DNA from: a virus
Taxonomy: Duplodnaviria; Caudoviricetes
Strand: one strand, 5' to 3'
DNA length: 64,000 nucleotides
Virus record (IMG/VR): IMGVR_UViG_3300033182_000922
Span: 519 to 64,518 of that record
Below, piece by piece: positions 6,546 to 27,493 of the stretch. Numbering within the stretch: the stretch's first letter is position 1; each line of letters begins with the position of its first letter. The position numbers and the translations under genes were made by a program. The notes beneath the pieces are model-generated. The model did not search any database. It was not told the DNA's origin and saw only the letters and a program-made list of their open reading frames with translations.

Positions 6546-7040
6546 ATGGCTAACATAGATAATCAATGTAAAGATTTAGAAGTACGAGATTACTTTGCAG
6601 AGAACGGTTACGAGCATTCTAAAAATTCATTAGAGGATCTCTATTCACTACAAGCAGAAACTCAAAACATGTACTTTAAGAAACAAGGTCGTAAACCTTT
6701 TTCCGATTTTACTATCGGTGATGTTATTGATTTTCTTATGGTTACTAATCATGCAATTATTGATGAACTCCATGAAATGATGGATGCAGTAGGTGGCATT
6801 GAAGACGGTGTAGGTAATGCTGCATGGAAACCTTGGAAATCTGCTAATCCTGAAATTAGAAAACAAAAATTGTCAGATCTTACTCCAGGAGATCTTAAGG
6901 AACTCAAAATGGAATGGATTGATGTAATGCATTTTGTATTTAATGCAGGTTTGGCAATCGGTGTAACTCCATCCGAGTTTTATAATTACTATCTCTCAAA
7001 GAATGAAGAGAATTGGAATCGTCAAAAAAACAATTACTAA
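6546..7040 (+). CDS. All-alpha dCTPase/dUTPase (T4 gp56-like)
   Basis: DELHEM, WKPWK, ELKMEWIDVMHF and YLSKNEENWNRQKNNY match the dimeric dUTPase/gp56 pattern. Confidence 0.75.
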   Translation: MANIDNQCKDLEVRDYFAENGYEHSKNSLEDLYSLQAETQNMYFKKQGRKPFSDFTIGDVIDFLMVTNHAIIDELHEMMDAVGGIEDGVGNAAWKPWKSANPEIRKQKLSDLTPGDLKELKMEWIDVMHFVFNAGLAIGVTPSEFYNYYLSKNEENWNRQKNNY

Positions 7041-7062
7041 TCCTTACATATAAAAATAAAAT

Positions 7063-8472: not shown

Positions 8473-8572
8473 AATCTTTCTGTTCATAAACCTACAAAAA
8501 TAAATAAACAACAATTAAATATGAATGTGCAACTTAGGTTGCATATTTAGTCAAAAAATATCAAAATATAAG

Positions 8573-9568: not shown

Positions 9569-9586
9569 GATTTAAAGAAATTAATA

Positions 9587-14837: not shown

Positions 14838-14838
14838 T

Positions 14839-15945
14839 ATGAAAAGAATTTACTTATCACCACCTCACATGACAGGTACTGAACTTGAATATGTAAAAGA
14901 GGCATTTGATCAAAATTGGATTGCACCGGTAGGACCAGCCTTGAATAGGTTTGAAGAATATGTTGCAGAATATGTAGGATCAAAGTACGCGGTAGCAGTA
15001 ACATCAGGTACGGCTGGAATACATTTAGCATTACGTGCATTAGGTATCAGTGAAGGGGATAATGTTATATGTTCTTCTCTTACTTTTGCAGGTACGGTAA
15101 ACCCAATTAAATATCTTGGTGCTAACCCGGTGTATGTTGACTCTGATCCAATATATTGGAACCTTAATCCACTCCTTTTAGAGGAGGCTATACTTAAACT
15201 ATCTGAAAAACCAAAGGCTATTATACCTGTTCATATATTTGGGGTACCTTGTCAAATGGATGCAATAAAAAGAATTGCAGATGCATATGAAATTCCTATC
15301 ATTGAAGATGCAGCTGAAAGTTTAGGTTCTCAATTTAATGGTAAGCATACTGGTACATTTGGTAAGATTGGAGTATATTCATTCAATGGTAATAAGTTAC
15401 TAACAACATCAGGTGGTGGAATGATAGTAACTAATGATAAAGATTTGGCAGATCATATGAGATTTTTATCTACTCAAGCAAAAGATCCAATGCCTTACTA
15501 TTGGCACACTCAGATAGGATATAATTATCGTATGAGTAATGTTCTTGCTGCGATTGGAATAGGTCAAATGGAATCAATAGAAGATAAGATAAAAAGGACT
15601 AGGGAAATTCGTCAAAGATATGAAGAAGAATTAGGAAGTTATTTTATGACATTTCAAAATGAGAGACCAACCGATAGATCCAATATGTGGCTAAGCTGCG
15701 CCTTGTTAAAGGAAGAGTATAAACCAGAAGATCTTATTGAACATCTTAATAAAGCTAATATAGAAGCCAGAAGAATCTGGTGTCCTATGCATATGCAACC
15801 TATATACGCAGAGGATTCTAAATATATAAATGGAACGGCTGATGCTCTATTTGATCGTGGTATATGTTTACCTTCAGGCTCAAGTATGAATGATGAAGAT
15901 CTAAATAGAGTAATAGGTGAAGTAAAAAAATTCTTTAACGAATGA
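14839..15945 (+). CDS. pglE: PLP-dependent sugar aminotransferase (PglE/DegT family)
   Basis: IYLSPPHM, SGTAGIHLAL, EDAAESLG, SFNGNKLLTTSGGG, GYNYRMSN, LPSGS. Confidence 0.85.
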   Translation: MKRIYLSPPHMTGTELEYVKEAFDQNWIAPVGPALNRFEEYVAEYVGSKYAVAVTSGTAGIHLALRALGISEGDNVICSSLTFAGTVNPIKYLGANPVYVDSDPIYWNLNPLLLEEAILKLSEKPKAIIPVHIFGVPCQMDAIKRIADAYEIPIIEDAAESLGSQFNGKHTGTFGKIGVYSFNGNKLLTTSGGGMIVTNDKDLADHMRFLSTQAKDPMPYYWHTQIGYNYRMSNVLAAIGIGQMESIEDKIKRTREIRQRYEEELGSYFMTFQNERPTDRSNMWLSCALLKEEYKPEDLIEHLNKANIEARRIWCPMHMQPIYAEDSKYINGTADALFDRGICLPSGSSMNDEDLNRVIGEVKKFFNE

Positions 15946-16841
15946 ATGTAGTATCATATGAAGATTTTCTTTTATTAGAAAAACATGTAGGTCCTAATTT
16001 TGAAATTCTTTTAGAGAAAAACTTAACTAATGAAATTGATAAAAAGATTAAGTTTGGTATAGTTATGCCTACCCATAAAATTTCTGATGGCGGTGCTCAA
16101 ACTGGTAGAGAAAAGTTTATGAATACACCTGACTTACTTAAAGATTCTTTAGGTTCAATTAGAGACCAAAAATATGATAACTATGTAGTTTATTTGGTAG
16201 GTGATAAATATGACGGTGATGATGAAATTAAAAAAGTGATGGATGAAGTCATACCAAAAGGTAAACTTAAATATCATAATCTATCTACACCAGGAGAAAG
16301 AAATAAAGGTTTTTCAAAACAACAGTTTAGATATACTGCAGGATGTGGTGCTATGAATAAAGGCCTTCAAATGGCAAAGAATGATGGATGTGATTACATC
16401 GTAAGAATAGACCATGATGATAAGTGGAGCCCTGATCATTTAGAGCTCTTGGCAAAAGCATATACACAATATCCTGAATTGGCTTATGTATTTACGAGAA
16501 GCCGTAAAAAGGTAGATGCCACAAATTCTTCTAAAAAGTTTATGTATCAACCCAGAGAAGAGCGCCATACGACAACAATAGAACCAAATAACCTCGGCTA
16601 TACTCATGGCGATGTTAGTCATTCTGCTGTTTCATGGAGACCTAGTATGTGTGGTGACTTAAGATACCGTGATGCATCTCAACAGGCAAACACTGCTCCT
16701 AAAATACCAATGTCTAAAACTAACCCAGCTGATGTTGATATGTTTAATAGAATGATGAAAGCTATAAAAGATAAAGGTCATAAGTATATGTATATCCCAA
16801 GGCTAACAAGTTTCTATAGAAACAGAAAAGGTAAATTCTAA
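15942..16841 (+). CDS. GT-A (GT2-like) glycosyltransferase with N-terminal extension
   Basis: GIVMPT, SIRDQKYDNY, AMNKGL, DYIVRIDHDDKW.PDHLE. Confidence 0.75.
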   Translation: MNVVSYEDFLLLEKHVGPNFEILLEKNLTNEIDKKIKFGIVMPTHKISDGGAQTGREKFMNTPDLLKDSLGSIRDQKYDNYVVYLVGDKYDGDDEIKKVMDEVIPKGKLKYHNLSTPGERNKGFSKQQFRYTAGCGAMNKGLQMAKNDGCDYIVRIDHDDKWSPDHLELLAKAYTQYPELAYVFTRSRKKVDATNSSKKFMYQPREERHTTTIEPNNLGYTHGDVSHSAVSWRPSMCGDLRYRDASQQANTAPKIPMSKTNPADVDMFNRMMKAIKDKGHKYMYIPRLTSFYRNRKGKF

Positions 16842-16875
16842 AGAATATATAAAAAAACAATAAAAAATAACTATT

Positions 16876-17052
16876 ATGGAAAAATTTGAAGAAATTAAAG
16901 CACTCATCGAATCTGTAGGTGAAGATGTAGAAAAGTTTTACGTTAAAGGAAATAAGGCAGCAGCCGTAAGAATTCGTAAATCTATGCAAGAAGTAAAAAA
17001 TCTTGCACAAGAATTAAGACTACATGTTCAAGAGACTAAAAACAACATGTAA
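16876..17052 (+). CDS. Histone H1-like (Hc1 family) nucleoid protein, Bacteroidota type
   Basis: 58 aa ORF missing from the track: MEKFEEIKALIESVGEDVEKFYVKGNKAAAVRIRKSMQEVKNLAQELRLHVQETKNNM, containing the KF..KGNKAA..R.RK signature. Confidence 0.8.
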   Translation: MEKFEEIKALIESVGEDVEKFYVKGNKAAAVRIRKSMQEVKNLAQELRLHVQETKNNM

Positions 17053-17079
17053 ATAATACACGCCCAGACACCCTAAAGA

Positions 17080-17106
17080 GGGCCACTATTAAAGTGGTCC
17101 TTTTTT
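17080..17106 (+). terminator. Intrinsic terminator
   Basis: GGGCCACT-ATTAA-AGTGGTCC followed by TTTTTT. Confidence 0.75.
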
Positions 17107-17176
17107 AGTTTATAAAGTCCTATTTATTTGAAACCTTTTTCAAAACCTCTATATAATAATAAATCAGTTTGATTAT

Positions 17177-17731
17177 ATGGAAAGGTGCTTAATACTAGAT
17201 TTTGATGATACTTTAGTTGATACTATTGATACTCACGCAGATTCCTGGAAACAGGCATTGGAGAGAGTACTTAATACAGATATCCCTATTGAGACGGTTA
17301 TGGCCGATATTAATTATGGGATGGATGTTTTATTAAAAAAGTACCAACTAACCAGAGAAGAATCTATTTTAGCTCAAAGATATAAAAAGGAAATTTTTGA
17401 AAAGAATATACATAAGACAAAGGTAAATAAATTACTTTTGTATATTATTGAAAATAATCTTTTTGAAAATTGTATCATTGCATCAAATTCATCCAGAGAA
17501 AATGTTGATAAAATCATGGCATATCATGGAATTAATCAAGATCTGTTTTGGGGTATTTTTACCAGAGATGATGTAAAGAAAAAGAAACCTCATCCTGAAA
17601 TGGGTGAAACTATATTTAGTTTGCTAAGAGCTTCATACCAAAAAGAAGACTATCTTATGGTTGGGGATTCTGAGGTAGATAAAATGTTTGCACGTAAACT
17701 TGGAATTAAATGCATACTAGTAAAATTTTAG
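17177..17731 (+). CDS. HAD-superfamily phosphatase
   Basis: DFDDTL, ASNS, KKPHP, VGDS..D. Confidence 0.85.
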   Translation: MERCLILDFDDTLVDTIDTHADSWKQALERVLNTDIPIETVMADINYGMDVLLKKYQLTREESILAQRYKKEIFEKNIHKTKVNKLLLYIIENNLFENCIIASNSSRENVDKIMAYHGINQDLFWGIFTRDDVKKKKPHPEMGETIFSLLRASYQKEDYLMVGDSEVDKMFARKLGIKCILVKF

Positions 17732-18456
17732 TAGGGAACAGTGGAGATAAGGTTTATCTCCATGAAGATAAGGTTATTAAGGAAGCGGGGGTGTATCCTG
17801 AAAAGTTTAAACAACAAATGGATTGGTTAGTAAATTGCCACCATCCTAATTTTATTGATGTTAAACCTATTTCAGATACATCTTTTGAAATGAAAAGATA
17901 CCCAACATGGTATGACCAAATATGTAATCAGCCTCTGGTAAAATCTCTATCACAATTAGATGATCTTATTCACATCGTTAATTCATTTGAAGGGTATGGT
18001 AAAGATATAGATACCAGAGCATATCTTGATAAGTTGGAAGGTCGTACTGGTTATAAGTATGAAGGAAATCTTGATGGTGCATCCAAGTGGGGTTTTGTTC
18101 ATGGTGATCTAACCGTAAGTAATATTCTATATGATAAAGATTTTATCTTTATTGATCCAAGAGGAACCGAAGAACAAGATTACTATGACTTTGGTAAACT
18201 AATGCAATCCTTTACTATGGAATATGAGGCCCATATATACAATAACAACAATCCAAAATACAGTAAGTTTTGTAAAGAAGCAGAAAAAATAATGTATGAA
18301 TGGTATGATGAATATCTTCTGAAGTTTTACTTAGCAGTCCACCTTTTAGGGGCAGTACCGTTTTTTGAATTAAATGAAAGATATGAATTGGCTGGTATGT
18401 TCCTTAAGAAAGGGCATGAATTATTCAATGAATTAGAAATTAAGTATACAAAATGA
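17710..18456 (+). CDS. APH/choline-kinase-like phosphotransferase
   Basis: HGDLTVSNI, FIDPRG, YYDFGKL. Confidence 0.75.
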   Translation: MHTSKILVGNSGDKVYLHEDKVIKEAGVYPEKFKQQMDWLVNCHHPNFIDVKPISDTSFEMKRYPTWYDQICNQPLVKSLSQLDDLIHIVNSFEGYGKDIDTRAYLDKLEGRTGYKYEGNLDGASKWGFVHGDLTVSNILYDKDFIFIDPRGTEEQDYYDFGKLMQSFTMEYEAHIYNNNNPKYSKFCKEAEKIMYEWYDEYLLKFYLAVHLLGAVPFFELNERYELAGMFLKKGHELFNELEIKYTK

Positions 18457-19160
18457 GTAGAGTAAGAAAGGCAATTATTTTAGCCGCAGGTAAATCCACC
18501 AGGTATGGATCTAATAAATTAGTAGATCCAATTTTAGGAAAGTCAACAGTTCAATACTGTATTGAATTTTGTATTGAAAATGGAATTGAGGATGCATATG
18601 TTACAATTAGTAAATCTGACTTCTTCTTTAAGAACAGAAATACAAAACTGTCTCATCCTATTATTGAAAGTTTATCTAAGTATAAGGAAAAGATAAACAT
18701 TTATTATGAATTCCAAAAGGATGATGAATACGGACCAGGTGCTGCCATTAAAGCATGGGAAGGCAAATTTTATGAGCCTTTCTTATGTCTCTTTGGTGAT
18801 AATTATTACCAAGGAAATATTGGTTTAGAATATCATGATCCTAATACCTCTGTTGTTACATATAAAGATTATCAAACTCGTGCAAGGAACCTTCAACTTG
18901 CAACTATCTTAGAGGATGTGGTTATTGAAAAACCGCATGGTGTTGTAAACGGAAGATACTTTTGTGGTTATATGATATTTGCAAAAGAGGCATTTGATAA
19001 TTTGAGTAGTATTAAATTATCAAATAGAAATGAATATGAAATTACTCATTTGATCAATTCCATGAGTAATCTTAAATTTGAAGAATTAGACATATGTTGG
19101 TATGACTTAACATATGAACAAGATAAACAAGTAATAGAAGATATCATTCAAAGTTGTTAA
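18453..19160 (+). CDS. Sugar-1-phosphate nucleotidyltransferase (RmlA-like)
   Basis: KAIILAAGKSTRY, FGDN, EKP, SNRNEYEIT. Confidence 0.8.
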   Translation: MSRVRKAIILAAGKSTRYGSNKLVDPILGKSTVQYCIEFCIENGIEDAYVTISKSDFFFKNRNTKLSHPIIESLSKYKEKINIYYEFQKDDEYGPGAAIKAWEGKFYEPFLCLFGDNYYQGNIGLEYHDPNTSVVTYKDYQTRARNLQLATILEDVVIEKPHGVVNGRYFCGYMIFAKEAFDNLSSIKLSNRNEYEITHLINSMSNLKFEELDICWYDLTYEQDKQVIEDIIQSC

Positions 19161-19161
19161 T

Positions 19162-20424
19162 ATGAAAGAAAACGTAAAAAAGATTGGCTTTTTTAAATTA
19201 GGTAAAGCCATTAAGTTTAATGAAAACAGTTGGAATGCTATTGGTGGAGACTGTGAACCTAAGCAGTTGATCAGTGCAATTGCCAACAGAAACCCTAATG
19301 TTGAATATTGGCTTCTTAGCCCAAATGACTTAGGAAAGGTTAGGGCTAAACAAAAGCCTAAAGTTAATTCTCTATTTGGTCCACCTCCAACTAAAGAAAA
19401 TGAAATTCCTACAAACATTAAGGAATTCCATTCAACTATGAATGATCGTAAATCAACCGATGAAGCAGTTGAAACGATTAAAGGTTTAGGATTAGATTTT
19501 GTATTCTTTTACACAGGTCCAACAAGTACTGTTAATATTGAAAACTTTATCAATAAGGTTGATGGTTCAGGTACAGTTAAAACATTGGACTTTTTTAAGT
19601 ATTATGCGGCTCCTATCATTAAGGCAATGAATGAAATGCCTAAGACTCCTATTGTAGGATTATTGGTAGACAACCGTTATGTACTTTCATGTAAGGATTA
19701 CACTGCCCATAACAGACCTACATATTACTTGGCCCAGAATAATTTTGAATTGGATGAAGAGTATTTCTGCAATCCTCCTACTAGAGAGACTGCAAAAATT
19801 CACTCTACTTTTGAATATTCCGGAATTGAAACGGTGTTCCTTTTAGATAAAAAGCGTTATGATATTGATGAGCTCTTTGCTATGAAGAAGACTAATTCAT
19901 TTATGATGCTTCAGAACCAAGGGAAGGGTTCAGGTGGAATGGACCGTTGGGATCCTGTTCGTGATTACATTGTAGAGAATGGAATCCAAACAGACATTTA
20001 TGGTAAATGGGATGATGAACTTAAGGAAAAATATCCTGATTGGTTTAAAGGAGAACGCCGTATTGAAACCATGACCGAAGAATTACTTGCAACCAAGTAT
20101 ACTTTCTGTGTTCCTATTAAAGAAGGAATGGTCACTTCTAAGTATGCCGAAATGTTGCACTATGGTATTATACCTTTCTTGCATCCATCCTATGATACTG
20201 AATTTAATGTATTCCCTGAAGGGCATTTCATCAGATGTAAATCACCAGAGGATCTGAAAAAGAAAATTGAATTCTTAAATGCCAACCCAGAGCATTATAA
20301 GAAGCTATTCTACAATCTCCAAGAAAAGTATTTAAAGGATTCTTATTATACCGGAGAACATGTAGATAATAAAATCTGGGAAGCCTATAATCGTGTAAAT
20401 CAAATAGAAACTGCAAATGTATAA
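19162..20424 (+). CDS. GT-B glycosyltransferase, resembling phage DNA beta-glucosyltransferase-type enzymes
   Basis: The C-terminal lobe (DIYGKW ... TSKYAEML..GIIPFLHPSYD ... EDLKKKIEFLN) parallels GT-B nucleotide-sugar-binding lobes; it lies in a nucleotide-sugar operon. Confidence 0.55.
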   Translation: MKENVKKIGFFKLGKAIKFNENSWNAIGGDCEPKQLISAIANRNPNVEYWLLSPNDLGKVRAKQKPKVNSLFGPPPTKENEIPTNIKEFHSTMNDRKSTDEAVETIKGLGLDFVFFYTGPTSTVNIENFINKVDGSGTVKTLDFFKYYAAPIIKAMNEMPKTPIVGLLVDNRYVLSCKDYTAHNRPTYYLAQNNFELDEEYFCNPPTRETAKIHSTFEYSGIETVFLLDKKRYDIDELFAMKKTNSFMMLQNQGKGSGGMDRWDPVRDYIVENGIQTDIYGKWDDELKEKYPDWFKGERRIETMTEELLATKYTFCVPIKEGMVTSKYAEMLHYGIIPFLHPSYDTEFNVFPEGHFIRCKSPEDLKKKIEFLNANPEHYKKLFYNLQEKYLKDSYYTGEHVDNKIWEAYNRVNQIETANV

Positions 20425-21439
20425 TTCAGAAACTAAAATCCTAATCACCGGCGGTGCTGGTTTTGTAGGAACTAATTTTATTAATGATCTCCTTAACCGA
20501 GGTCATAATCCAAAATGTATAGCCGTGATTGATAATCTTTCGCACGGTACTTATTTACCTCAGGTACATGACCAAATTGAAAACTTTCATAAGGTAGATA
20601 TTCGCAATCAGTATGTAGAAAATATTATCGAGGAATTTAAACCTGATTATGTTTATCATTTTGCTGGTCTTGTTTCAATTTATGACTGTAACGAAGACCC
20701 TTATGAAGCAGTTGACAACAATATCTTAGGAAGTATTAATGTAATGAATGGCTGTGTTAAGGCTGGGGTTAAGAGAATCATCTTCAGTGAAACTTCTGCT
20801 GTTTATGAAAATTGTGAAATGCCTGAAGCTGGGTTTAATGAAACACAGTCCGATCCTACTACTGTTTATTCAACAACTAAAGCATGTCTTGCACTGTTGG
20901 CAGAATCTTACCAAAGAACAAAAGGCCTTAATTATACGGCATTAAGATACTTTAATGTTGCTGGCCCTCTTCAAGATTACAATAGAACGATCCCTCCTGT
21001 ATTTGCCGGATTTATCCTAAGAATTAAAGGGGGTCATAATCCTATCGTGTTCGGTGATTATATGAAAGCTCGTGATTACATTGATGTATCCGATGTTAAT
21101 GCATTCCATATTCTCTGTATGGAAAATGAGAATACCGCAAACCAAACATTTAACTTAGGTACGGGTAAAATGACTAACCTAATGGAACTTAAAAATATGA
21201 TTGGTGATATTATGGGAGTTGGTGAAGTGCCTTTTGACCATTATGATCCTATTGCAGGTGAAGCATTAAATATTCGTGGAGATATCTCTAAAGCTAAATC
21301 TATGGGATGGGAACCTAAAAAGGATATTAGAGATACAATTAAAGAAACTATTGTATATCTTGAAAATGAAATTGCCGAAGGTACAATTGATCCTTTAACA
21401 TTCATGGAGGATCTTGAAATAGAAAAAGTTAAAATATAA
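20417..21439 (+). CDS. NAD-dependent nucleotide-sugar epimerase/dehydratase (SDR)
   Basis: TGGAGFVG, YSTTK, LRYFNVAGP, RDYIDVSD, FNLGTG. Confidence 0.88.
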   Translation: MYNSETKILITGGAGFVGTNFINDLLNRGHNPKCIAVIDNLSHGTYLPQVHDQIENFHKVDIRNQYVENIIEEFKPDYVYHFAGLVSIYDCNEDPYEAVDNNILGSINVMNGCVKAGVKRIIFSETSAVYENCEMPEAGFNETQSDPTTVYSTTKACLALLAESYQRTKGLNYTALRYFNVAGPLQDYNRTIPPVFAGFILRIKGGHNPIVFGDYMKARDYIDVSDVNAFHILCMENENTANQTFNLGTGKMTNLMELKNMIGDIMGVGEVPFDHYDPIAGEALNIRGDISKAKSMGWEPKKDIRDTIKETIVYLENEIAEGTIDPLTFMEDLEIEKVKI

Positions 21440-21443
21440 TAGA

Positions 21444-22061
21444 ATGTCAGAGTATACGTTCAATGCAGATTATGCATCTATTGAATCTAGAGAATTACCT
21501 CAAGCAAAAATTCTTGCTAAATGGATTAAAGGATGCCTTAATCCTAATAGAGTAATTGATTTAGGTTGTGGTCCTGGTATCTATGTTCATGAACTCATTA
21601 ACCTCGGTGTTGATGCTATAGGATATGAATTAGACCCTAGGGCAAAAGAAATACCTCATGTAATTCATAAAAGTTTATTGGACGTTCATGACAAATCAGA
21701 TGTAGTTATCTCTCTTGAGGTTGCGGAACATTTAGAACCCAAGTATTCGCAAGCAATGGTTGATAAAGTATATGAAACATTGGAACCGGGTGGTACATTA
21801 ATATGGACCGCTGCTAATGTAGGTCAAGGTGGAACTGATCATATTAACTGTAGGCCTAAAGAATATTGGATAAAGAAATTTACCGATAAGGGACTGATCC
21901 ACTGTCATACATTAGAAGGTAATCTTAAAAGCACATTGCGTAGTGTAATACCAAAGGAATATCATGGATGGCTATATATGAACCTAGTAATTATGTATAA
22001 AGAAGACTGGGATGATAATCCAAGTAAGGCTGGATCTCTTATCGGTCTTGATTCAAAATAA
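21444..22061 (+). CDS. Class I SAM-dependent methyltransferase
   Basis: VIDLGCGPG, SLEVAEHL, GQGG.DHIN. Confidence 0.8.
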   Translation: MSEYTFNADYASIESRELPQAKILAKWIKGCLNPNRVIDLGCGPGIYVHELINLGVDAIGYELDPRAKEIPHVIHKSLLDVHDKSDVVISLEVAEHLEPKYSQAMVDKVYETLEPGGTLIWTAANVGQGGTDHINCRPKEYWIKKFTDKGLIHCHTLEGNLKSTLRSVIPKEYHGWLYMNLVIMYKEDWDDNPSKAGSLIGLDSK

Positions 22062-22072
22062 AACGATTAAAT

Positions 22073-23335
22073 ATGAGTAAAGAAATAAAATGGGGAACAA
22101 TCATACCGCTTATCGGTGGTAGTGCTATAGGCTGTAGCAAATCCACAGGAAATCAGCCATCATTTCATTTAAGTTACGATGCCTTTGCTGCAAACGAAAG
22201 CCATATTGAAAAATATTGGCCAGATGTTCCAATGTATAGATTGGACCATGAAGATTTAGAAATTCCTGGGGAAACTTTTGAAGGTGTAGATTATGTTAAT
22301 AGTGTTTGCCCTTGCGCAGGATTATCTCTTTTAAATTCTGCAAGTGGATCTGCCGCCTCTAGGGGATCTGATGCAGTTCAAAATAAATGGATGTATGATT
22401 CATCCGAATACATCTTGGAACACGTAAAGCCTAAAGTTCTCTGGGGCGAAAATGCACCTGGTCTTTTTACTAAGATGGGAGAGGGTGTAGTACAGAGACT
22501 TAGGGAAATTGCAGAAAAGCATGGATATAGTTTTTCTCTAATTAAAACCAATACTGAATTACATGGTATTCCACAGAGAAGAATGCGTACTTTCTATTTC
22601 TTCTGGAACACACCAACAGTTCCAATGTTGGAATGGAAGTTTAGAGAAAAGAAAAAACTTATTGATTATCTTAACGAAATTCCAGAGGATGCTACTCAAC
22701 AGGACATGTTTATGGTTCCTGGTAAAGTGTCCGAACATTTTAGACCTTATGAGTTTGTTTTAGAAAGGGAAGGCTTGACACATGCTGAATTTTCTGCTAA
22801 ATTTAAGAAAGGTACTATTGCACAATACCTTGATAAACATGAATTACTTGATGAGTGTATTGAATGGCTAAGAGAGAAATATCCAAAAGAAGGTTTTTCA
22901 AATAAGAAGTCAACCAAAACATTTATTGATATGTTAGAGCATCAAAAGAATAAGGTAAGCCAAGGTCTTGGTTATTGGGATGCTTCTCCTCACTTCTTCC
23001 ATGATTCGTTCTCTGCCTTAATTGGTCGTAACATGTTTAATGGTGTCCACCCTGTAGAAAATCGTTATCTTAATGTTAGAGAAATGTTACATCTGATGGG
23101 ATTACCTTTAGACTTTGAAATTGAATCTTCTCGCCAAGTTAATCATATTGCACAAAATGTACCGGTTACAACTGCAATGGATATGGCCAATGAAGTTAAG
23201 AAGTTCTGTGAAGGTAATGCTAAAATGACAAATTATACCTTCTTAAAACAGGATAACACAAATCATAAAATCATAGCAGCTGAGGAAATTGGCTCAACTC
23301 CTAAAAAGAAGTATAAAGTAAAAAGTGTAATATGA
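22073..23335 (+). CDS. DNA cytosine-C5 methyltransferase-like protein with atypical motif I
   Basis: Catalytic CPCAGLS (motif IV), ENAP (VI), PQRRMR (VIII), RYLNVREMLHLMGLP (IX), IAQNVP (X). Motif I reads IIPLIGG. Confidence 0.75.
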   Translation: MSKEIKWGTIIPLIGGSAIGCSKSTGNQPSFHLSYDAFAANESHIEKYWPDVPMYRLDHEDLEIPGETFEGVDYVNSVCPCAGLSLLNSASGSAASRGSDAVQNKWMYDSSEYILEHVKPKVLWGENAPGLFTKMGEGVVQRLREIAEKHGYSFSLIKTNTELHGIPQRRMRTFYFFWNTPTVPMLEWKFREKKKLIDYLNEIPEDATQQDMFMVPGKVSEHFRPYEFVLEREGLTHAEFSAKFKKGTIAQYLDKHELLDECIEWLREKYPKEGFSNKKSTKTFIDMLEHQKNKVSQGLGYWDASPHFFHDSFSALIGRNMFNGVHPVENRYLNVREMLHLMGLPLDFEIESSRQVNHIAQNVPVTTAMDMANEVKKFCEGNAKMTNYTFLKQDNTNHKIIAAEEIGSTPKKKYKVKSVI

Positions 23336-24342
23336 AAAAGAACGCAGTAGCTATCGGGGTATCAAGCCTCGAGTTTATGAACATTCTTTTAACCTATTAT
23401 CCTAAAGGAATTAAGGAAACCTTTGACTTTTACCTTTTTATTGATGATACTAAGGTAACATCAGATCAAGTAAATGAGGTTATAGGTAAACATGATATAC
23501 CTTCATTTAAATCTGCTAAGCATATTATCATTAGAGATTTATATGATTACTACGCAGAAAAACATGAGTATGAAGGTAAGGCTAAAGAATTCTTATACAA
23601 TCACGGATGCTTATTTAAGGTTCTTATGCCAATGTATCTTAAAGAAAAATTTAATGTCAACCGGACTTATGTTTCTGATGATGATGTTTTTATCTTTAAT
23701 GATCTAAGCTATATGTTTACTAAATATAAGGAATTTGGTTATAAGAAAGAAAACCTATTTAACCTTAGAAATAAAGATAAGTATGAAGTCTTAGGTGCAT
23801 TTAATGAAATCTTTGAAGTTGATTTTACCTTAGAACAAATGAATGCATTATCTATTAATGCAGGTAATATCATTTATGGAGATGATCCTAAAATGGAGTA
23901 TTACTTCAAGAGGTATATGAATCACCCAATGGTTCATCACTTATTCTTTGACTTTGAAGGGTACACCAGTTGGACGGTTGAACAGAGATTCCATCATTGG
24001 AACTTTCATAGGCTAATGGCTGAAGGTAGAACCGTTGATATATTAGGTCCTAAAGATTTAAGACTAATGCAAAATGTAAATAAGAAAGCTTTGGCAAATA
24101 ATGAACAACCTCTCTATTTAAGACAAGTTACACCTTCTCTTATGCATTATGCTATAGGTGTTAAGAAGCCAATTTTCTTAAGGCAGTTTTTAAGAGGGAT
24201 TGAATGGAAGTTTGGTTTTGAATATCAACCTCAATATGAGCTAAAGGATATCTTATATGATGAAACTTGGCAACCCCCTGCATTCAAACAAGTTCAAGCA
24301 GAAATGAAAGGCGCAAAAAGTAAAGTAACCTCTCTGTTCTAA
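23332..24342 (+). CDS. Putative GT-A glycosyltransferase (GT8-like)
   Basis: SDDDVF (DxD), INAG, EQ and late HY motifs. Confidence 0.5.
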   Translation: MKKNAVAIGVSSLEFMNILLTYYPKGIKETFDFYLFIDDTKVTSDQVNEVIGKHDIPSFKSAKHIIIRDLYDYYAEKHEYEGKAKEFLYNHGCLFKVLMPMYLKEKFNVNRTYVSDDDVFIFNDLSYMFTKYKEFGYKKENLFNLRNKDKYEVLGAFNEIFEVDFTLEQMNALSINAGNIIYGDDPKMEYYFKRYMNHPMVHHLFFDFEGYTSWTVEQRFHHWNFHRLMAEGRTVDILGPKDLRLMQNVNKKALANNEQPLYLRQVTPSLMHYAIGVKKPIFLRQFLRGIEWKFGFEYQPQYELKDILYDETWQPPAFKQVQAEMKGAKSKVTSLF

Positions 24343-24392
24343 CTTAAACTAAGTAATCATTAATCAATATAAAAATAAACAAATTCAAAACA

Positions 24393-25142
24393 ATGGAAGC
24401 AACAATTGAAAAAATCGATGGATACGAATTAAGTTCGTTCGTCAAAAAACTTCTTCCTATTGACAAATTCATCTTTATGAAAATTGGTCAAGAAGGAACT
24501 GTCTCGTCTGTGTATTTTCCAGAGAGGGATGCGGTTAAGTTGGTAAACACTCCAACTAAAGATATCTTTGAAACTGATATCACACAACCAGTTAAGGTAA
24601 GCTTTTACAATGGTACTAAAGTGATTGATGCATTGTCCCATTTTAATGGTGATGTAAAAGGTCGTATTAAGTATTCAGAATATGATGGCGAACTTATGGC
24701 AAGTGATTTTATTTTAGAGAATGAAGATCTACAAATTAATCTTGCATGTAGTGATCCTTCGCTATCTTTCATGGAGATGAGTAAAGAAGAAACAGATCGT
24801 GCGTTTGGAACAGATTCTAAAATGTTCGAATTTGATCTTTTAACTACCCACGTTGATCGCATGAAGTCTCTCTTTAACTTAGATAAAGACGAGGATATCT
24901 TTACTATCTACACTAGTGATAAAGGTATTGGAATCAAAGGAAGTTCATATGACGCTACGCTCTGCCACACATATGATTCAAATGTTGATACAGGTGCAAG
25001 GGTGGTTATTTATAAAAAGTATCTTAATCTTTTAGATAAGGAAAACTATAAAGTTGTGGTTTGTGAAAATAAAGTAGTATTCCGCTCTCTTGATACTAAC
25101 ACCCATTTAACCGTCGCAGTTGCAATTACTGACGAGGATTAA
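24393..25142 (+). CDS. Putative DNA sliding clamp (gp45-like)
   Basis: Acidic, 249 aa, alternating beta/alpha pattern, directly upstream of the polymerase C-subunit. No diagnostic motif recognised. Confidence 0.45.
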   Translation: MEATIEKIDGYELSSFVKKLLPIDKFIFMKIGQEGTVSSVYFPERDAVKLVNTPTKDIFETDITQPVKVSFYNGTKVIDALSHFNGDVKGRIKYSEYDGELMASDFILENEDLQINLACSDPSLSFMEMSKEETDRAFGTDSKMFEFDLLTTHVDRMKSLFNLDKDEDIFTIYTSDKGIGIKGSSYDATLCHTYDSNVDTGARVVIYKKYLNLLDKENYKVVVCENKVVFRSLDTNTHLTVAVAITDED

Positions 25143-25159
25143 TCACCTAATCAATAAGA

Positions 25160-26275
25160 ATGACAGAGGAACTTAAAAAGACTAAAGAAGAAGCGAGTAA
25201 GTATTACAACTATGAACAGGCCGTTAAGCTTATGCTTAACTCTATCTACGGTGCATTTGGTAATCCTTACTTCTACTTCTTTAATGTTGATATTGCTGAA
25301 ACTATTACTCTACAAGGTAAGGATGCAATTCTTTATACTGAAAAGCTAATCAATAAGTATTTTAAGGAATTCTGGCATAAAGATATAGATGCCCACAATC
25401 AATTAGGTATTAAAGTTACCGGTAAAATTGAAAAACCCGTGGGCATCTATATTGATACAGATTCAATATATGTTAAGTTTGATGAGATCATTAAAAAGTC
25501 TGATTGGGAAGGCTCGGAAAAGGATTTTATACTTAAGATATATAAAGTAAGATTAGCAGATTATATTGAAAAAATCTTACAAAAATATGCAGATGATAAT
25601 AATGCAGAAAACTTTTTAAGCTTTGAATTGGAGAGCATCGCAAAGAATGCGATATGGCTTGCAAAGAAAAAGTATATGCAGAATATTGTTTGGAAGGATC
25701 CTGATATCCACTATGATGAATTAACTAAAATTAGTGCCAAAGGATTTGAAATTATTCAATCATCAACGCCTGTTTTTGCTAGGGAAAAACTAAAAGACCT
25801 ATTGACATATATCTTTTCTGTTGATCAATTGGATATGAAAGAATTTGCAAATTTACTTAAGGATGTAAAACGACAATTTAGATTGGCTAACACTGATCAA
25901 ATTAGTTTTTCAAAGAAAGTTAATAATTACCAAAAGTATATTGTTAATGATTATGATTCATTTGAAATTGCATCTAAATGCCCAATCGGTGTAAGGTCGG
26001 CCGGGTATCATAACTATCTTTTAAATAACTCAGGTCTTAAAGGAAAATATCAACCATTAGGAAATGGAGAAAAACTAAAAATGTATTTTTCTGTTGATAA
26101 ATCATGTGATGTATTTGCATATGCCCCTGGTGACTATCCTTATGAATTTGCACCAGAAGTAGATTATGATCGTCAATTTGAAAAAACAATATTGGATCCT
26201 ATCAACAGGGTTGTAACTGCAATGGGATTTAAGGCATTTAATCGTAACCTTATTTATACTACGAGCCTATTCTAA
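25160..26275 (+). CDS. gp43B: Family B DNA polymerase, C-terminal subunit (motifs B and C, thumb)
   Basis: KLMLNSIYGAFG, ITLQG, YIDTDS, KKKY, KGFE. C-terminal SLF is a clamp-binding-like tail. Confidence 0.9.
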   Translation: MTEELKKTKEEASKYYNYEQAVKLMLNSIYGAFGNPYFYFFNVDIAETITLQGKDAILYTEKLINKYFKEFWHKDIDAHNQLGIKVTGKIEKPVGIYIDTDSIYVKFDEIIKKSDWEGSEKDFILKIYKVRLADYIEKILQKYADDNNAENFLSFELESIAKNAIWLAKKKYMQNIVWKDPDIHYDELTKISAKGFEIIQSSTPVFAREKLKDLLTYIFSVDQLDMKEFANLLKDVKRQFRLANTDQISFSKKVNNYQKYIVNDYDSFEIASKCPIGVRSAGYHNYLLNNSGLKGKYQPLGNGEKLKMYFSVDKSCDVFAYAPGDYPYEFAPEVDYDRQFEKTILDPINRVVTAMGFKAFNRNLIYTTSLF

Positions 26276-26288
26276 AAATAAAATTATT

Positions 26289-27476
26289 ATGACTAGTAAA
26301 AGAACATTCAGAATTCATGTATTAGGGCTACCTCATACAAAAACCACTAAAGATTTTACCGCTTGTGCATATACACAAAAGGTTTGGAAGTTTTGTAAAA
26401 TGATGAAAGGGCGTGGGCATTACATTATGCACTATGGGCATGAAGATTCAAATCCTGCCGCGGATGAAAATATCACTGTAATTACTAATGATGTTTGGAA
26501 TAAGGTATATGGTTCTCATGATTACAAAAAGAAACTTTTTAAATACAATACGAGTGACGAAGCCTATCAAACGTTTTATCGTAATGCAATTAGAGAAATA
26601 GGTAAAAGAAAACAACCGGGTGATATCATACTTCCATTCTGGGGATCCGGCGTAAGACCTATCTGTGATGCTCATAATGATTTATGTATTATTGAACCAG
26701 GAATCGGTTACGCCGGTGGTATGTGGTCGGTATTTAAAATATTTGAATCTTATGCAATATATCATGCATACTGTAGTTTGGAAAACGTTAGTACATGTAA
26801 ACAAAGTTGGTATGATCAAGTAATTCCTAACTATTTTGATCTTGATGAATTTGAATACAGCCACGAAAAGGAAGACTATTTTCTTTATGTAGGAAGAGTT
26901 TACGATGGTAAAGGTGTTAACATTGCCTTACAGACAACGCAGGCTATTGGGGCTAAATTAAAAATTGCAGGACAAATTGGCCAAGAGTTTTATGAAAAAA
27001 TGGATAAAAATAATTCTTGGCCTGATCATGTTGAATTTGTAGGTTATGTTAACGCTGAAGAGAGAAAGAATCTGATGAAAGGTGCTATCGCATCCTTCTT
27101 ACCTTCAATGTACGTAGAACCTTTCGGTGGGGTACAGATTGAAAATCTTTTATGTGGTACTCCAACAATTACAACTGATTGGGGTGCATTTGCAGAAAAT
27201 AATATTCATGGTCTTACTGGGTACAGATGTAGAAGTTTTGAAGAGTTTGTTAAAGCCGCCAAGAATTGCCAAGAAGGAAAGATTAGGCCTATTGATTGTA
27301 GAAATCATGGAGAAAACTTTTCACTTGAAGCCACTGCACCTAAATATGAAAAATACTTTTCACAGGCATTAAATGTTACTCAAGCAAAGGGTTGGTATAC
27401 TATTGAAGATCCTTCCTTATATACACAAGAATGGCTTGATGATCATAAGGATTTTGTTTTTGAAAAAAAAAGCTAG
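26289..27476 (+). CDS. GT-B (GT4-like) glycosyltransferase
   Basis: YVGR...KG, EPFGGVQIENLLCGTP.ITTDWGAF.E. Confidence 0.85.
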   Translation: MTSKRTFRIHVLGLPHTKTTKDFTACAYTQKVWKFCKMMKGRGHYIMHYGHEDSNPAADENITVITNDVWNKVYGSHDYKKKLFKYNTSDEAYQTFYRNAIREIGKRKQPGDIILPFWGSGVRPICDAHNDLCIIEPGIGYAGGMWSVFKIFESYAIYHAYCSLENVSTCKQSWYDQVIPNYFDLDEFEYSHEKEDYFLYVGRVYDGKGVNIALQTTQAIGAKLKIAGQIGQEFYEKMDKNNSWPDHVEFVGYVNAEERKNLMKGAIASFLPSMYVEPFGGVQIENLLCGTPTITTDWGAFAENNIHGLTGYRCRSFEEFVKAAKNCQEGKIRPIDCRNHGENFSLEATAPKYEKYFSQALNVTQAKGWYTIEDPSLYTQEWLDDHKDFVFEKKS

Positions 27477-27493
27477 AGATTAAAAAACCTAAA

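What the first reader, a model, noticed from the sequence alone, without database searches (positions are those of the whole stretch)
17131..24342. Eight-gene operon for candidate DNA sugar-hypermodification, directly upstream of the clamp and polymerase C-subunit
Seen: one replication-class promoter (17131-17159) precedes tightly coupled genes. They encode a HAD phosphatase, an APH-like kinase, a nucleotidyltransferase, a GT-B resembling phage DNA glucosyltransferases, an SDR epimerase, a SAM methyltransferase, a C5-DNA-MTase-like protein and a GT-A. A gp56-like dCTPase/dUTPase sits next to the polymerase N-subunit. Known: T-even phages pair gp56 with glucosyl or arabinosyl transfer to modified cytosines. 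Inference: kinase, phosphatase, nucleotidyltransferase and epimerase make an unusual NDP-sugar that one or two GTs attach to a modified cytosine. No dCMP hydroxymethylase or TET gene is visible in this window, so the acceptor chemistry may be new.
Basis: partly seen in the sequence, partly recalled or inferred. Interest (0 to 1): 0.72.

Follow-up and report, generated by a model that had tools for sequence, protein, structure and literature searches.

The report
Phage DNA sugar-modification operon, T4-like
A common marine giant phage carries an operon that most likely makes its own activated sugar and attaches it to modified cytosines in its DNA, a variant of the trick that phage T4 uses to hide its DNA from bacterial nucleases.

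Summary
The eight-gene operon is real. It runs from 17177 to 24342 and is bracketed by two copies of a recurrent promoter motif. Seven of the eight gene calls hold. The "clamp" next door could not be confirmed.

The key enzyme (19162-20424) belongs to a phage family whose nearest solved relative is T4 DNA beta-glucosyltransferase, by sequence profile and by fold. The T4 catalytic Asp100 aligns to a family-invariant Asp.

Homologues in three other phage lineages sit beside a thymidylate-synthase-like gene, a HAD phosphatase and a fused nucleotidyltransferase-kinase. That layout matches the RB69/DLP3 DNA-arabinosylation clusters published in 2026.

The "missing" acceptor enzyme is not missing. 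Eight of nine related contigs encode a T4 gp42-type dCMP hydroxymethylase, about 14 kb past the end of this 64.5-kb contig. The window itself holds a gp56-like dCTPase.

Best reading (about 0.65): 5-hydroxymethylcytosine DNA is glycosylated with a phage-made, 4-epimerised NDP-sugar. In some strains the sugar is methylated or extended by a GT8-like second transferase.

The acceptor chemistry is therefore probably classical, not new. The sugar and the role of the conserved C5-methyltransferase-like protein remain open.

The neighbouring bacillosamine, Kdo and other glycosyltransferase genes vary between strains and may serve another glycan.

Verdict: new variant of a known kind. No chemistry was tested.

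The parts
17128..17159 (+). Promoter of the operon (AAAC-N17-TATAATAA; also TTGAAA-18-TATAAT)
   Evidence: The motif occurs 10 times against 0.67 expected, all on the + strand. The next copy, at 24346, closes the unit.
17075..17105 (+). Terminator-like hairpin that separates the operon from the upstream genes
   Evidence: 13-pair stem followed by a T run.
17177..17731 (+). HAD-IA-type phosphatase (or phosphomutase). Inferred to trim a sugar bisphosphate to a sugar-1-phosphate.
   Evidence: HAD_2 at 1.4e-23. Only sub-threshold NCBIfam hits. Present in 33 of 39 related loci; the misses are truncated loci.
17710..18456 (+). APH-fold small-molecule kinase. Inferred to be an anomeric sugar kinase.
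   Evidence: APH at 0.0038. Atlas APH clusters at 0.98. Weak HMM hits to the kinase halves of the XG4 fusion (16.7 bits), RB69 gp52 (11.8 bits) and the phage 9183 fusion (6.6 bits).
18453..19160 (+). Sugar-1-phosphate nucleotidyltransferase
   Evidence: Best PDB match is ST0452-type sugar-1-P nucleotidyltransferase (7e-7).
19162..20424 (+). GT-B glycosyltransferase of the T4 beta-glucosyltransferase family; candidate DNA glycosyltransferase
20417..21439 (+). GalE-like NDP-sugar 4-epimerase (SDR)
   Evidence: Epimerase at 8.7e-48. Best PDB match is UDP-glucose 4-epimerase 4zrm at 2.5e-43. Present in 39 of 39 loci.
21444..22061 (+). Class I SAM methyltransferase, strain-variable; inferred sugar-tailoring enzyme
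   Evidence: Methyltransf_23 at 2.7e-11. Found in only 3 of 39 related loci. Other methyltransferases or no gene occupy this slot elsewhere.
22073..23335 (+). C5 DNA-cytosine-methyltransferase-fold protein, conserved; role unresolved
   Evidence: DNA_methylase at 1.2e-18. Motifs read CPC, ENA, QRRMR and QNVP, with a divergent motif I. Present in 39 of 39 loci. Also lies next to the GT-B homologue in phage XG4.
23332..24342 (+). GT-A (GT8-like, DxD) glycosyltransferase, accessory; inferred second-sugar transferase
   Evidence: pLDDT 89. Top Foldseek matches are XXYLT1 (5e-8), LgtC, glycogenin and LARGE1. D117-D118 are invariant. Present in 24 of 39 loci.
6546..7040 (+). gp56-like dCTP pyrophosphatase
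   Evidence: tblastn hits 1456 phage records. Best is the Thanatos-2 dCTPase (34.5%, 3e-23); RB69 gene 56 gives 38.7%.

Best explanation
The operon is a DNA cytosine-hypermodification module of the T-even type, equipped with its own sugar-nucleotide supply.

Inferred sequence of events:
1. The gp56-like dCTPase (in the window) and a gp42-type dCMP hydroxymethylase (just beyond the contig's end; seen in relatives) replace dC with 5-hydroxymethyl-dC during replication.
2. The kinase, HAD enzyme and nucleotidyltransferase turn a host sugar phosphate into an NDP-sugar, via sugar bisphosphate and sugar-1-phosphate. This is the logic of the RB69/HY126 AfhE/AfhF route and of GDP-heptose synthesis.
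3. The GalE-like SDR epimerises the NDP-sugar at C4.
4. The T4-BGT-family GT-B transfers the sugar to the hydroxymethyl group in duplex DNA.
5. In some strains, including this one, a SAM methyltransferase tailors the sugar and a GT8-like GT-A adds a second sugar.

The purpose would be protection from restriction and CRISPR nucleases.

Shown here: the operon structure, the folds and families, BGT homology with the conserved catalytic Asp, the gene linkage in other phages, and the presence of dCTPase and hydroxymethylase in the lineage.

Inferred: the DNA acceptor, the identity of the sugar, the order of steps, and the protective role.

For: 2. Linkage elsewhere.
- Pseudoalteromonas phage XG4: TS-family gene, small HAD-like gene, NTP-transferase+APH fusion, GT-B (30% identical), a second GT-B, C5-MTase-like gene (33%).
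- Enterococcus phage 9183: dTMP kinase, thymidylate synthase, dUTPase, HAD, NTP-transferase+kinase fusion, GT-B (27%).
- Metagenome loci L055/L056: dNMP kinase, NTP-transferase+kinase fusion, small HAD, GT-B (38%), three ORFs without a match, TS-family gene.

3. Lineage.
- 8 of 9 related IMG/VR records searched hold a second, divergent TS-family gene.
- Its best PDB hits are CMP hydroxymethylase MilA (2.3e-25) and T4 dCMP hydroxymethylase (4.6e-24); the best true thymidylate synthase scores 2.8e-13.
- It reads KDFVCT...MRSND...TATD, i.e. D143, D169 and D177, as does the T4-type gp42 of phage PP01. RB69's 5-hydroxy-dCMP synthase has N169 (diagnostic residues from PMC13326640, section 28).
- Records G002, G003 and G004 each hold the dCTPase (88-91%), the operon and this gene.
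- G002 is collinear with the window up to its end.

4. The core genes (HAD, kinase, nucleotidyltransferase, GT-B, SDR, C5-MTase-like) keep their order in all 12 relatives mapped. The flanking sugar genes vary.

5. The operon sits in the replication module and carries the same promoter motif as the dCTPase, polymerase and uvsX genes. The RB69 cluster likewise lies between uvsX and gene 43.
Against: - No chemistry was measured; nothing shows that this phage's DNA is modified.
- The hydroxymethylase is not on this contig. It is inferred from relatives whose GT-B is 80-87% identical to the window's.
- A conserved C5 DNA-methyltransferase-fold gene in the operon is hard to reconcile with full replacement of C by hmC. 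Such an enzyme would have no substrate in phage DNA.
- The HAD, kinase and nucleotidyltransferase show only weak or no sequence similarity to their RB69, XG4 and 9183 counterparts. The kinase scores 6.6-16.7 bits, the nucleotidyltransferase at most 8.3 bits and the HAD about 1-2 bits. The parallel is therefore one of composition, not orthology.
- The operon is embedded in a large sugar island: bacillosamine-type genes, KdsA, a sulfotransferase, GT2, two GT4-type transferases and a sialyltransferase-like gene. A review of jumbo phages reads such clusters as tools for remodelling host surface polysaccharide (PMC7824862, passages).
- GT-B folds are common, and BGT leads the next chain by only about 2.5 Z units.
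- The nearest large relative, LR756500.1, has the hydroxymethylase-like gene (54%). It gave no GT-B match in the whole record, and none of the operon's genes lies within about 12 kb either side of its clamp-like gene.
Confidence: 0.65

Rival explanations
1. The operon is part of one large glycan-building island (11358-28375) whose product is not DNA-linked. It would remodel the host's LPS, capsule or S-layer glycan during infection (superinfection exclusion, receptor masking), or glycosylate virion proteins. The BGT-like enzyme would be just one more GT-B acting on a sugar or protein acceptor.
For: - The neighbours encode a PglF/PglD/PglE-like trio, KdsA (278 bits, above its cut-off), a sulfotransferase, GT2 and two GT4-type enzymes.
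- Relatives add an arabinose-5-phosphate isomerase next to KdsB.
- A sialyltransferase-like gene sits beside the capsid genes.
- These genes are swapped between strains, as O-antigen loci are.
- PMC7824862 (passages) proposes this role for sugar clusters in jumbo phages.
Against: - The variable genes are the flanking ones. The HAD-kinase-NTPtr-GT-B-SDR core is fixed in order.
- The GT-B family's only solved sequence relative is a DNA glycosyltransferase.
- Its homologues in three other lineages lie among thymidylate-synthase-like, dUTPase and dNMP-kinase genes, not among polysaccharide genes.
- None of 20 island proteins has a hydrophobic 19-residue window of 1.6 or more on the Kyte-Doolittle scale. 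So no initiating phosphoglycosyltransferase, flippase or polymerase is evident. This is a crude scan.
- The operon is not under a late promoter class shared with structural genes.
Confidence: 0.17
2. The acceptor is created on DNA by the C5-methyltransferase-fold protein (22073-23335), not by a nucleotide-level hydroxymethylase. Either 5mC is later oxidised, as in TET phages, or the enzyme, with its rewritten motif I, installs a different C5 group. The adjacent GT-B then glycosylates that group at specific sequence motifs only.
For: - The gene is present in 39 of 39 related loci, always two or three genes after the GT-B.
- It is again next to the GT-B pair in the distant phage XG4 (33% identity).
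- The catalytic Cys and the ENx, QRR and NVP motifs are kept, but motif I reads IPLIGG.
- The TET-MTase-GT precedent is cited in PMC13326640 (introduction passage).
Against: - No Tet_JBP match in the own contig or in 4 related records; all are fragments.
- Both lineages that carry this protein also carry a gp42-type hydroxymethylase (relatives) or a TS-family gene (XG4), which makes a second route unnecessary.
- The family has 2106 homologues, including eukaryotic transcripts at about 55% identity and 600-700-residue fusions. It looks like a general marine DNA methyltransferase family.
Confidence: 0.08
3. The lineage makes 5-hydroxycytosine-linked (ether) glycans, as RB69, DLP3 and RL38J1 do, rather than hydroxymethylcytosine-linked ones.
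For: The composition is the same: TS homologue, HAD, kinase, nucleotidyltransferase, GT-B and dCTPase. [quoted passage not shown]
Against: - The relatives' TS homologue keeps Asp169. PMC13326640 found Asn at this position in all 5-hydroxy-dCMP synthases tested.
- The GT is BGT-like, whereas the paper states that RB69 and DLP3 lack BGT homologues.
- The isomerase sits next to KdsB, so it fits Kdo synthesis.
Confidence: 0.07

Closest known systems
Phage T4 hydroxymethylcytosine glucosylation (gp56 dCTPase, gp42 dCMP hydroxymethylase, beta-glucosyltransferase)
   Same: - A gp56-like dCTPase lies in the window.
- Relatives carry a gp42-signature TS homologue.
- The GT-B is related to T4 BGT by sequence profile and fold, with the catalytic Asp conserved.
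- The genes lie in the replication module near the polymerase and uvsX genes.
   Different: - T4 takes UDP-glucose from the host. Here the phage encodes a kinase, a HAD enzyme, a nucleotidyltransferase and a 4-epimerase, so a different sugar is likely.
- The GT is only 12-14% identical to BGT in the structural alignments.
- There are extra genes: a methyltransferase, a GT8-like transferase and a C5-MTase-fold protein.
- The polymerase is split, and the genome is probably of jumbo size.
RB69 / DLP3 / HY126 arabosyl-5-hydroxycytosine clusters (PMC13326640: abstract, sections 25, 27, 28 and passages read)
   Same: - The same set of activities stands next to the DNA GT: HAD phosphatase (AfhF-like), APH-fold kinase plus sugar-1-P nucleotidyltransferase (AfhE-like), TS homologue, nucleotide kinase and dCTPase.
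- The position beside the polymerase and uvsX genes is the same.
   Different: - Kinase and nucleotidyltransferase are separate genes here, not a fusion.
- The HAD belongs to another subfamily, and sequence similarity is marginal.
- The TS homologue has Asp169, not Asn169.
- The GT is BGT-like, not GT4-like.
- No isomerase is in the operon, and an epimerase is added.
Uncharacterised modules in Pseudoalteromonas phage vB_Psh_XG4 and Enterococcus phage 9183 (Denvervirus)
   Same: True homologues of the GT-B (30% and 27% identity over more than 90% of its length). In XG4 the C5-MTase-like protein is homologous too (33%). In both phages the genes are adjacent to TS-family, HAD and nucleotidyltransferase-kinase genes.
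   Different: - I found no paper on DNA modification in these phages. One full-text search on enterococcal phages gave a paper on another phage whose DNA is unmodified; phage XG4 was not searched for.
- Their kinase and nucleotidyltransferase are fused.
- No epimerase or GT8-like gene was seen in the stretches examined.
Shewanella phage Thanatos pentosyl-cytosine (PMC12838424, abstract only read)
   Same: A T4-like aquatic phage with a sugar-modified cytosine and a phage-encoded NDP-sugar pyrophosphorylase. Its dCTPase (from Thanatos-2) is the best phage match to the window's (34.5%).
   Different: PMC13326640 reports that the Thanatos TS homologue carries D169N and makes 5-hydroxy-dC. The present lineage has Asp169.

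Membership tests
T4 beta-glucosyltransferase family (DNA GT-B) | Two-Rossmann-domain GT-B fold closest to BGT | tested here: met
T4 beta-glucosyltransferase family (DNA GT-B) | Detectable sequence homology to BGT | tested here: met
   The profile of 73 homologues gives E=4.1e-8 and 9.7e-8 to 1nzd and 1bgt. The single sequence finds nothing.
T4 beta-glucosyltransferase family (DNA GT-B) | Catalytic base Asp100 (its role is recalled; the 1nzd title names a D100A mutant) | tested here: met
   The HMM alignment puts BGT F-T-D100-I-R on the family's invariant D170-x-R172.
T4 beta-glucosyltransferase family (DNA GT-B) | Transfers a sugar to 5-hydroxymethylcytosine in duplex DNA | not testable with these tools
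   Needs an enzyme assay or nucleoside LC-MS.
T-even hmC replacement pathway | dCTP pyrophosphatase (gp56) | tested here: met
   6546-7040 matches gp56 or dCTPase genes in 1456 phage records, up to 3e-23.
T-even hmC replacement pathway | dCMP hydroxymethylase (gp42) with Asp at ThyA positions 177 and 169 | tested here: inconclusive
   Absent from the own 64.5-kb contig. Present in 8 of 9 related records with the gp42 signature. In collinear G002 its position is about 14 kb beyond the window's end.
RB69/DLP3 arabinosyl-5-hydroxycytosine (Afh) system | TS homologue with Asp169 changed to Asn (5-hydroxy-dCMP synthase) | tested here: not met
   The relatives' homologue reads MRSND, i.e. D169. RB69 gp48 reads MRSQN. 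The criterion comes from PMC13326640, section 28.
RB69/DLP3 arabinosyl-5-hydroxycytosine (Afh) system | Bifunctional AfhE (nucleotidyltransferase-kinase fusion) and small AfhF HAD | tested here: not met
   Here the kinase and nucleotidyltransferase are two separate genes, and the HAD is a 184-residue HAD-IA type. HMM scores to the RB69, XG4 and 9183 counterparts: HAD 1-2 bits, kinase 6.6-16.7, nucleotidyltransferase at most 8.3. The activities may still be equivalent.
RB69/DLP3 arabinosyl-5-hydroxycytosine (Afh) system | Arabinose-5-phosphate isomerase in the cluster | tested here: not met
   No SIS domain in the own contig. Two of 4 relatives' records have one far from the operon; in G001 it is adjacent to KdsB.
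TET-dependent 5mC to 5hmC to glycosyl pathway | TET/JBP dioxygenase next to the C5-MTase and the GT | tested here: not met
   Tet_JBP: 0 of 1 own contig and 0 of 4 related records. All are fragments, so absence from the whole genome is not shown.
Surface-polysaccharide (O-antigen or capsule) gene cluster | Membrane steps: initiating phosphoglycosyltransferase, flippase or ABC exporter, polymerase or ligase | tested here: inconclusive
   A Kyte-Doolittle 19-residue scan of 20 island proteins gives a maximum of 1.54; none reaches 1.6. The test is crude, and the host could supply these steps.
GT8-like retaining GT-A (for 23332-24342) | GT-A fold with a DxD metal site | tested here: met
   Model pLDDT 89.4. 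Foldseek matches XXYLT1 (5e-8), LgtC, glycogenin and LARGE1, with TM only 0.37-0.50. D117-D118 are invariant in 25 sequences. There is no Pfam hit and no PDB profile hit.

The most novel reading that the evidence does not exclude
An abundant marine jumbo-phage lineage decorates every cytosine of its DNA with a strain-variable oligosaccharide built on hydroxymethylcytosine. The first sugar would be a phage-made, 4-epimerised and sometimes O-methylated sugar. It would be extended by the GT8-like enzyme and perhaps by the neighbouring GT2 and GT4 enzymes, using bacillosamine-type, Kdo or sulfated sugars. The conserved methyltransferase-fold protein with a rewritten cofactor motif would not be a methylase. 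It would be a base-flipping enzyme that acts on the 5-substituted cytosine. That would make this the most elaborate DNA glycan known, with a new use for the C5-MTase fold.
Probability: 0.1. Interest if true: 0.85.

Novelty: new variant of a known kind. Interest (0 to 1): 0.55.

Why it matters
If the reading is right, hypermodified, sugar-coated DNA is not a curiosity of coliphages. It would be a fixed trait of a phage lineage seen in many aquatic metagenomes. The GT-B alone has more than 150 close homologues, one of them also carrying a Tara record, on contigs of up to about 219 kb.

Such DNA resists many restriction enzymes and Cas nucleases. It can also distort sequencing and cloning, so it bears on how marine viromes are sampled.

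The module is also a compact, self-contained source of an unusual NDP-sugar together with a DNA glycosyltransferase. That would be of interest as an enzymatic DNA-labelling tool.

The strain-to-strain swapping of tailoring genes inside a fixed core would be a clear case of an arms race written into DNA chemistry.

Tried and rejected
- Single-sequence searches of the GT-B and the kinase against PDB sequences found nothing useful. Only the family profile and the fold gave the BGT link.
- blastn of the operon against 50,697 phage records found no match.
- The alignment A1 was too divergent for the search for related loci (error).
- Two distant GT-B representatives gave no confirmed locus in IMG/VR. 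The metagenome scan then gave two loci.
- The listing of cluster members on 10 GT-B representatives gave no organism names.
- Clamp identity of 24393-25142: no Pfam or PHROG hit. There was one unannotated tblastn hit, and no PDB hit with an 8-sequence profile. Left open.
- Sequencing runs: no RNA holder was listed. All listed holders are DNA contigs with a share of 0.25 or less, so I did not lay reads.
- The enterococcal type IV restriction paper (PMC11322646, passages) concerns a phage with unmodified DNA and does not bear on phage 9183.
- A search for 'dCMP hydroxymethylase / marine / jumbo phage' listed nothing on this cluster. A search for HY126 plus arabinose returned only PMC13326640. 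So I did not see the primary Afh paper, nor any supplement. Supplements are closed, and Fig. S10/S11 of PMC13326640 may bear on the pathway comparison.
- I considered Kdo as the operon's sugar (KdsA, then a KdsC-like HAD, then a KdsB-like transferase). I set it aside because Kdo activation needs no kinase, and relatives carry a true KdsB elsewhere.
- I considered a dCMP methylase (XP12-type) for the relatives' TS homologue. Asp at position 143, as in gp42, argues for hydroxymethylation. This rests on one sentence of PMC13326640.

Full report
WHAT IS THERE.

The window is almost all of a 64.5-kb viral contig. Its G+C content is about 33% and nearly all genes lie on one strand.

It carries T4-like replication and morphogenesis genes:
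- a family B polymerase in two parts (7063-8472 and 25160-26275);
- ribonucleotide reductase, a UvsX/RecA-like protein and a gp41-like helicase;
- SbcCD, a clamp loader, portal, protease, major capsid protein, terminase and tail sheath.

The nearest public genomes by polymerase are uncultured huge phages. LR756500.1 (462 kb) is 60% identical. The nearest cultured phage listed is a Pelagibacter myophage at 36%. CheckV estimates for this contig and eight of the nine related records searched are 15-65% complete, which points to a jumbo-sized genome.

Eight ORFs from 17177 to 24342 overlap or are separated by at most 11 bases. The motif AAAC-N17/18-TATAAWWA occurs 10 times, all on the + strand, against 0.67 expected; 0 of 100 shuffles reach 10. 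It stands at 17131 before the first gene and at 24346 right after the last. A terminator-like hairpin lies at 17075-17105. Other copies of the motif precede the dCTPase, the polymerase N-part and uvsX, so the operon belongs to the same promoter class as the replication genes.

Seven of the eight family assignments are borne out. The kinase call rests on sub-threshold Pfam evidence (APH, 17.5 bits) plus protein-language-model neighbours. The claim that the next gene (24393-25142) is a sliding clamp could not be confirmed by any search.

THE KEY ENZYME.

The 420-residue protein from 19162-20424 has more than 150 close homologues (77-86% identity among the 120 listed) in aquatic metagenomes, on contigs of up to about 219 kb. 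It has 380 representatives at the 50% clustering level.

A profile of 73 diverse members finds only T4 DNA beta-glucosyltransferase at E<1e-5 among all PDB sequences (4.1e-8 and 9.7e-8). In that alignment the T4 catalytic Asp100 falls on the family's invariant Asp170, within a D-x-R motif.

GENE LINKAGE IN OTHER PHAGES.

Only 8 of 50,697 phage records hold a homologue.

- Pseudoalteromonas phage XG4 has this order: TS-family gene, small HAD-like gene, a 559-residue nucleotidyltransferase+APH-kinase fusion, the GT-B homologue (30%), a second GT-B, and a C5-methyltransferase-fold gene that is 33% identical to the window's.
- Enterococcus phage 9183 has this order: dTMP kinase, thymidylate synthase, dUTPase, HAD, a 544-residue nucleotidyltransferase+kinase fusion, then the GT-B homologue (27%).
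- In two Agathobaculum phages a weak partial GT match (E=1e-3, 28% coverage) lies about 150 bases from a gene annotated as deoxyuridylate hydroxymethyltransferase.
- In two metagenome contigs with a 38%-identical GT-B the order is: dNMP kinase, fusion, small HAD, GT-B, three ORFs without a match, TS-family gene.

The kinase-nucleotidyltransferase fusions link the two activities that are separate genes in the window. This composition is that of the RB69/DLP3/HY126 cluster. There a bifunctional AfhE (sugar-phosphate 1-kinase plus UDP-sugar pyrophosphorylase) and an AfhF HAD phosphatase make UDP-arabinose for DNA glycosyltransferases, next to a TS homologue and a nucleotide kinase (PMC13326640, sections 25 and 27). 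In RB69 that cluster lies between uvsX and the polymerase gene, the same neighbourhood as here.

THE 'MISSING' ACCEPTOR ENZYME.

The own contig has no TS-family and no TET/JBP gene. But 39 IMG/VR loci carry the operon, with GT-B identity of 78-95%.

Of nine longer records searched, eight hold a second, divergent TS-family gene of about 80-88 bits. Two of them also hold a normal ThyA of about 292-299 bits. A tenth record was not held.

The divergent protein's best PDB relatives are the CMP hydroxymethylase MilA (2.3e-25) and T4 dCMP hydroxymethylase (4.6e-24), well ahead of any thymidylate synthase (2.8e-13).

In alignment A2 it reads KDFVCT ... MRSNDLILGTATD. The gp42 of T4-type phage PP01 reads SDFMCT ... 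MRSNDVVFGFRND. RB69's 5-hydroxy-dCMP synthase reads MRSQNCAVVMQLD, and the relatives' own ThyA reads QRSVDVFLGLPFN. In E. coli ThyA numbering the lineage's enzyme has Asp143, Asp169 and Asp177. According to PMC13326640 (section 28), position 177 sets cytosine versus uracil, position 143 tracks hydroxymethyl versus methyl, and Asn169 marks 5-hydroxylation. The enzyme is therefore of the classical gp42 type.

It is flanked by a guanylate kinase, a thymidylate-kinase-like gene and an ATP-grasp gene. Record G002 is collinear with the window (76-88% protein identity from terminase through 59435-60454; the last window ORF is about 40% identical) up to the window's end, and carries this gene about 14 kb further on. 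Records G002, G003 and G004 each hold the dCTPase (88-91%), the operon and the hydroxymethylase.

The window's own dCTPase matches gp56 genes in 1456 phage records. The acceptor is therefore most likely ordinary 5-hydroxymethylcytosine.

CORE AND ACCESSORY PARTS.

These counts use tblastn at E<=1e-5 with more than half of the query covered, across the 39 loci.

| Gene | Loci with a match | Note |
|---|---|---|
| GT-B, C5-MTase-like, clamp-like gene, PolB C-part, UvsX | 39 of 39 | |
| SDR | 39 of 39 | one match partial |
| Kinase, nucleotidyltransferase | 34 of 39 | misses are loci that start at the GT-B |
| HAD | 33 of 39 | misses are truncated loci |
| GT8-like last gene | 24 of 39 | |
| Window's methyltransferase | 3 of 39 | 51%, 51% and 26% identity |
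| Sulfotransferase | 0 of 39 | |
| First GT4-type transferase | 18 of 39 | |

Gene order is fixed in all 12 loci mapped. The slot between the SDR and the C5-MTase-like gene holds the window's methyltransferase, a different Methyltransf_23-like gene, an unassigned 205-residue ORF, or nothing. One relative has an FkbM/RfbT-type methyltransferase between the kinase and the nucleotidyltransferase. A fixed core with swappable tailoring enzymes fits strain-level diversification of one glycan.

The last gene folds as a GT-A (pLDDT 89.4). Its best matches are GT8-type enzymes that add a sugar onto a sugar: xyloside xylosyltransferase, LgtC, glycogenin and LARGE1. E-values go down to 5e-8, but TM is only 0.37-0.50. 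It has an invariant Asp-Asp pair. I read it as an optional second-sugar transferase.

The SDR is closest to UDP-glucose 4-epimerases (4zrm, 2.5e-43).

WHAT DOES NOT FIT.

(a) The C5-methyltransferase-fold protein is as conserved as the GT-B and recurs beside it in XG4. Yet a C5 methylase has no substrate in fully hmC-substituted DNA. It keeps the catalytic Cys (CPC), ENA, QRRMR and QNVP, but motif I reads IPLIGG. Its family is large (2106 hits) and includes eukaryotic transcripts at about 55% identity and 600-700-residue fusions. It may be an ordinary methylase acting on other DNA, or something new. I cannot tell.

(b) The window's HAD, kinase and nucleotidyltransferase are at best marginally similar in sequence to the fused or small versions in RB69, XG4 and 9183. 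The parallel is functional, not orthologous.

(c) The operon lies in a much larger sugar island. This holds a PglF/PglD/PglE-type trio, KdsA, a sulfotransferase, GT2 and two GT4-type enzymes, plus a sialyltransferase-like gene at 45563-46357. Relatives add an arabinose-5-phosphate isomerase next to KdsB. These genes could feed a different glycan on the host surface or the virion, as a review of jumbo phages proposes for such clusters (PMC7824862, passages). They could also extend a DNA glycan. None of 20 island proteins shows a membrane-span-like segment, but that test is crude.

(d) LR756500.1 has the hydroxymethylase-like gene (54% identity), but none of the operon's genes matched within about 12 kb either side of its clamp-like gene. 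The whole-record search found no GT-B there either. So the operon is lineage-specific.

VERDICT.

This is a real operon. It is most likely a T-even-style hydroxymethylcytosine glycosylation system with a BGT-family transferase, combined with a phage-encoded sugar-nucleotide supply of the kind recently described for RB69-like phages. It also has strain-variable tailoring genes.

It is a new variant of a known kind. The concept and each enzyme class are known. The particular combination, the likely new sugar, the conserved methyltransferase-fold partner and the marine jumbo-phage setting are not described in the papers I could search.

Everything about the acceptor, the sugar and the biological role is inferred from sequence and needs chemistry.

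Noticed in passing
L047:2365-3582 and L054:3103-4104 (relatives G001, G002): An ATP-grasp ligase gene directly follows the gp42-type hydroxymethylase in relatives. Pfam hits are weak: YheC/D and 'sugar-transfer associated ATP-grasp'. It could add an amino acid or another group to the modified base or sugar.
   Followed up: partly
window 12019-12759; L050:1387-2759 (relative G001): The window's KdsA scores 278 bits, above its cut-off. A relative carries an arabinose-5-phosphate isomerase (35% identical to RB69 gp55) immediately followed by a true KdsB (219 bits). The lineage thus encodes most of a CMP-Kdo pathway, spread over two places.
   Followed up: partly
window 45563-46357 (- strand): The only sizeable minus-strand gene in the window is sialyltransferase-like (phrog_4603, 4.8e-40). 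It lies between the capsid region and the clamp loader.
   Followed up: no
window 22073-23335 and one search hits: The C5-MTase-fold family has eukaryotic transcriptome homologues at about 55% identity. Many are 600-700-residue fusions, and one carries a zf-CXXC domain. This hints at exchange between marine viruses and plankton.
   Followed up: no
L052 (LR756500.1) 13385-13702 and 15871-16683: In the 462-kb uncultured phage the polymerase C-part matches in two pieces about 2.2 kb apart. That suggests an intein, intron or inserted gene inside it.
   Followed up: no
L035:8202-9923; L003:13563-14261: Relatives carry insertions inside the conserved block. One is a 573-residue helicase (ResIII/Helicase_C_2) between the nucleotidyltransferase and the GT-B. 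The other is an unassigned 232-residue ORF between the clamp-like gene and the polymerase C-part.
   Followed up: partly
window 16876-17052: A 58-residue ORF, followed by the terminator-like hairpin, sits between GT2 and the operon promoter. No function was looked for.
   Followed up: no
window 1-711; L054:8013-10289: There are collagen-triple-helix repeat proteins in the window and in a relative. They may be virion fibres and so possible glycosylation targets.
   Followed up: no
window 7028-17130 and 24346-28365: No copy of the promoter motif lies between 7028 and 17131, or between 24346 and 28366. By this motif alone, the bacillosamine/Kdo/GT2 genes would be co-transcribed with the polymerase N-part and RNR genes. 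The two GT4-type genes would be co-transcribed with the clamp-like gene and the polymerase C-part.
   Followed up: partly
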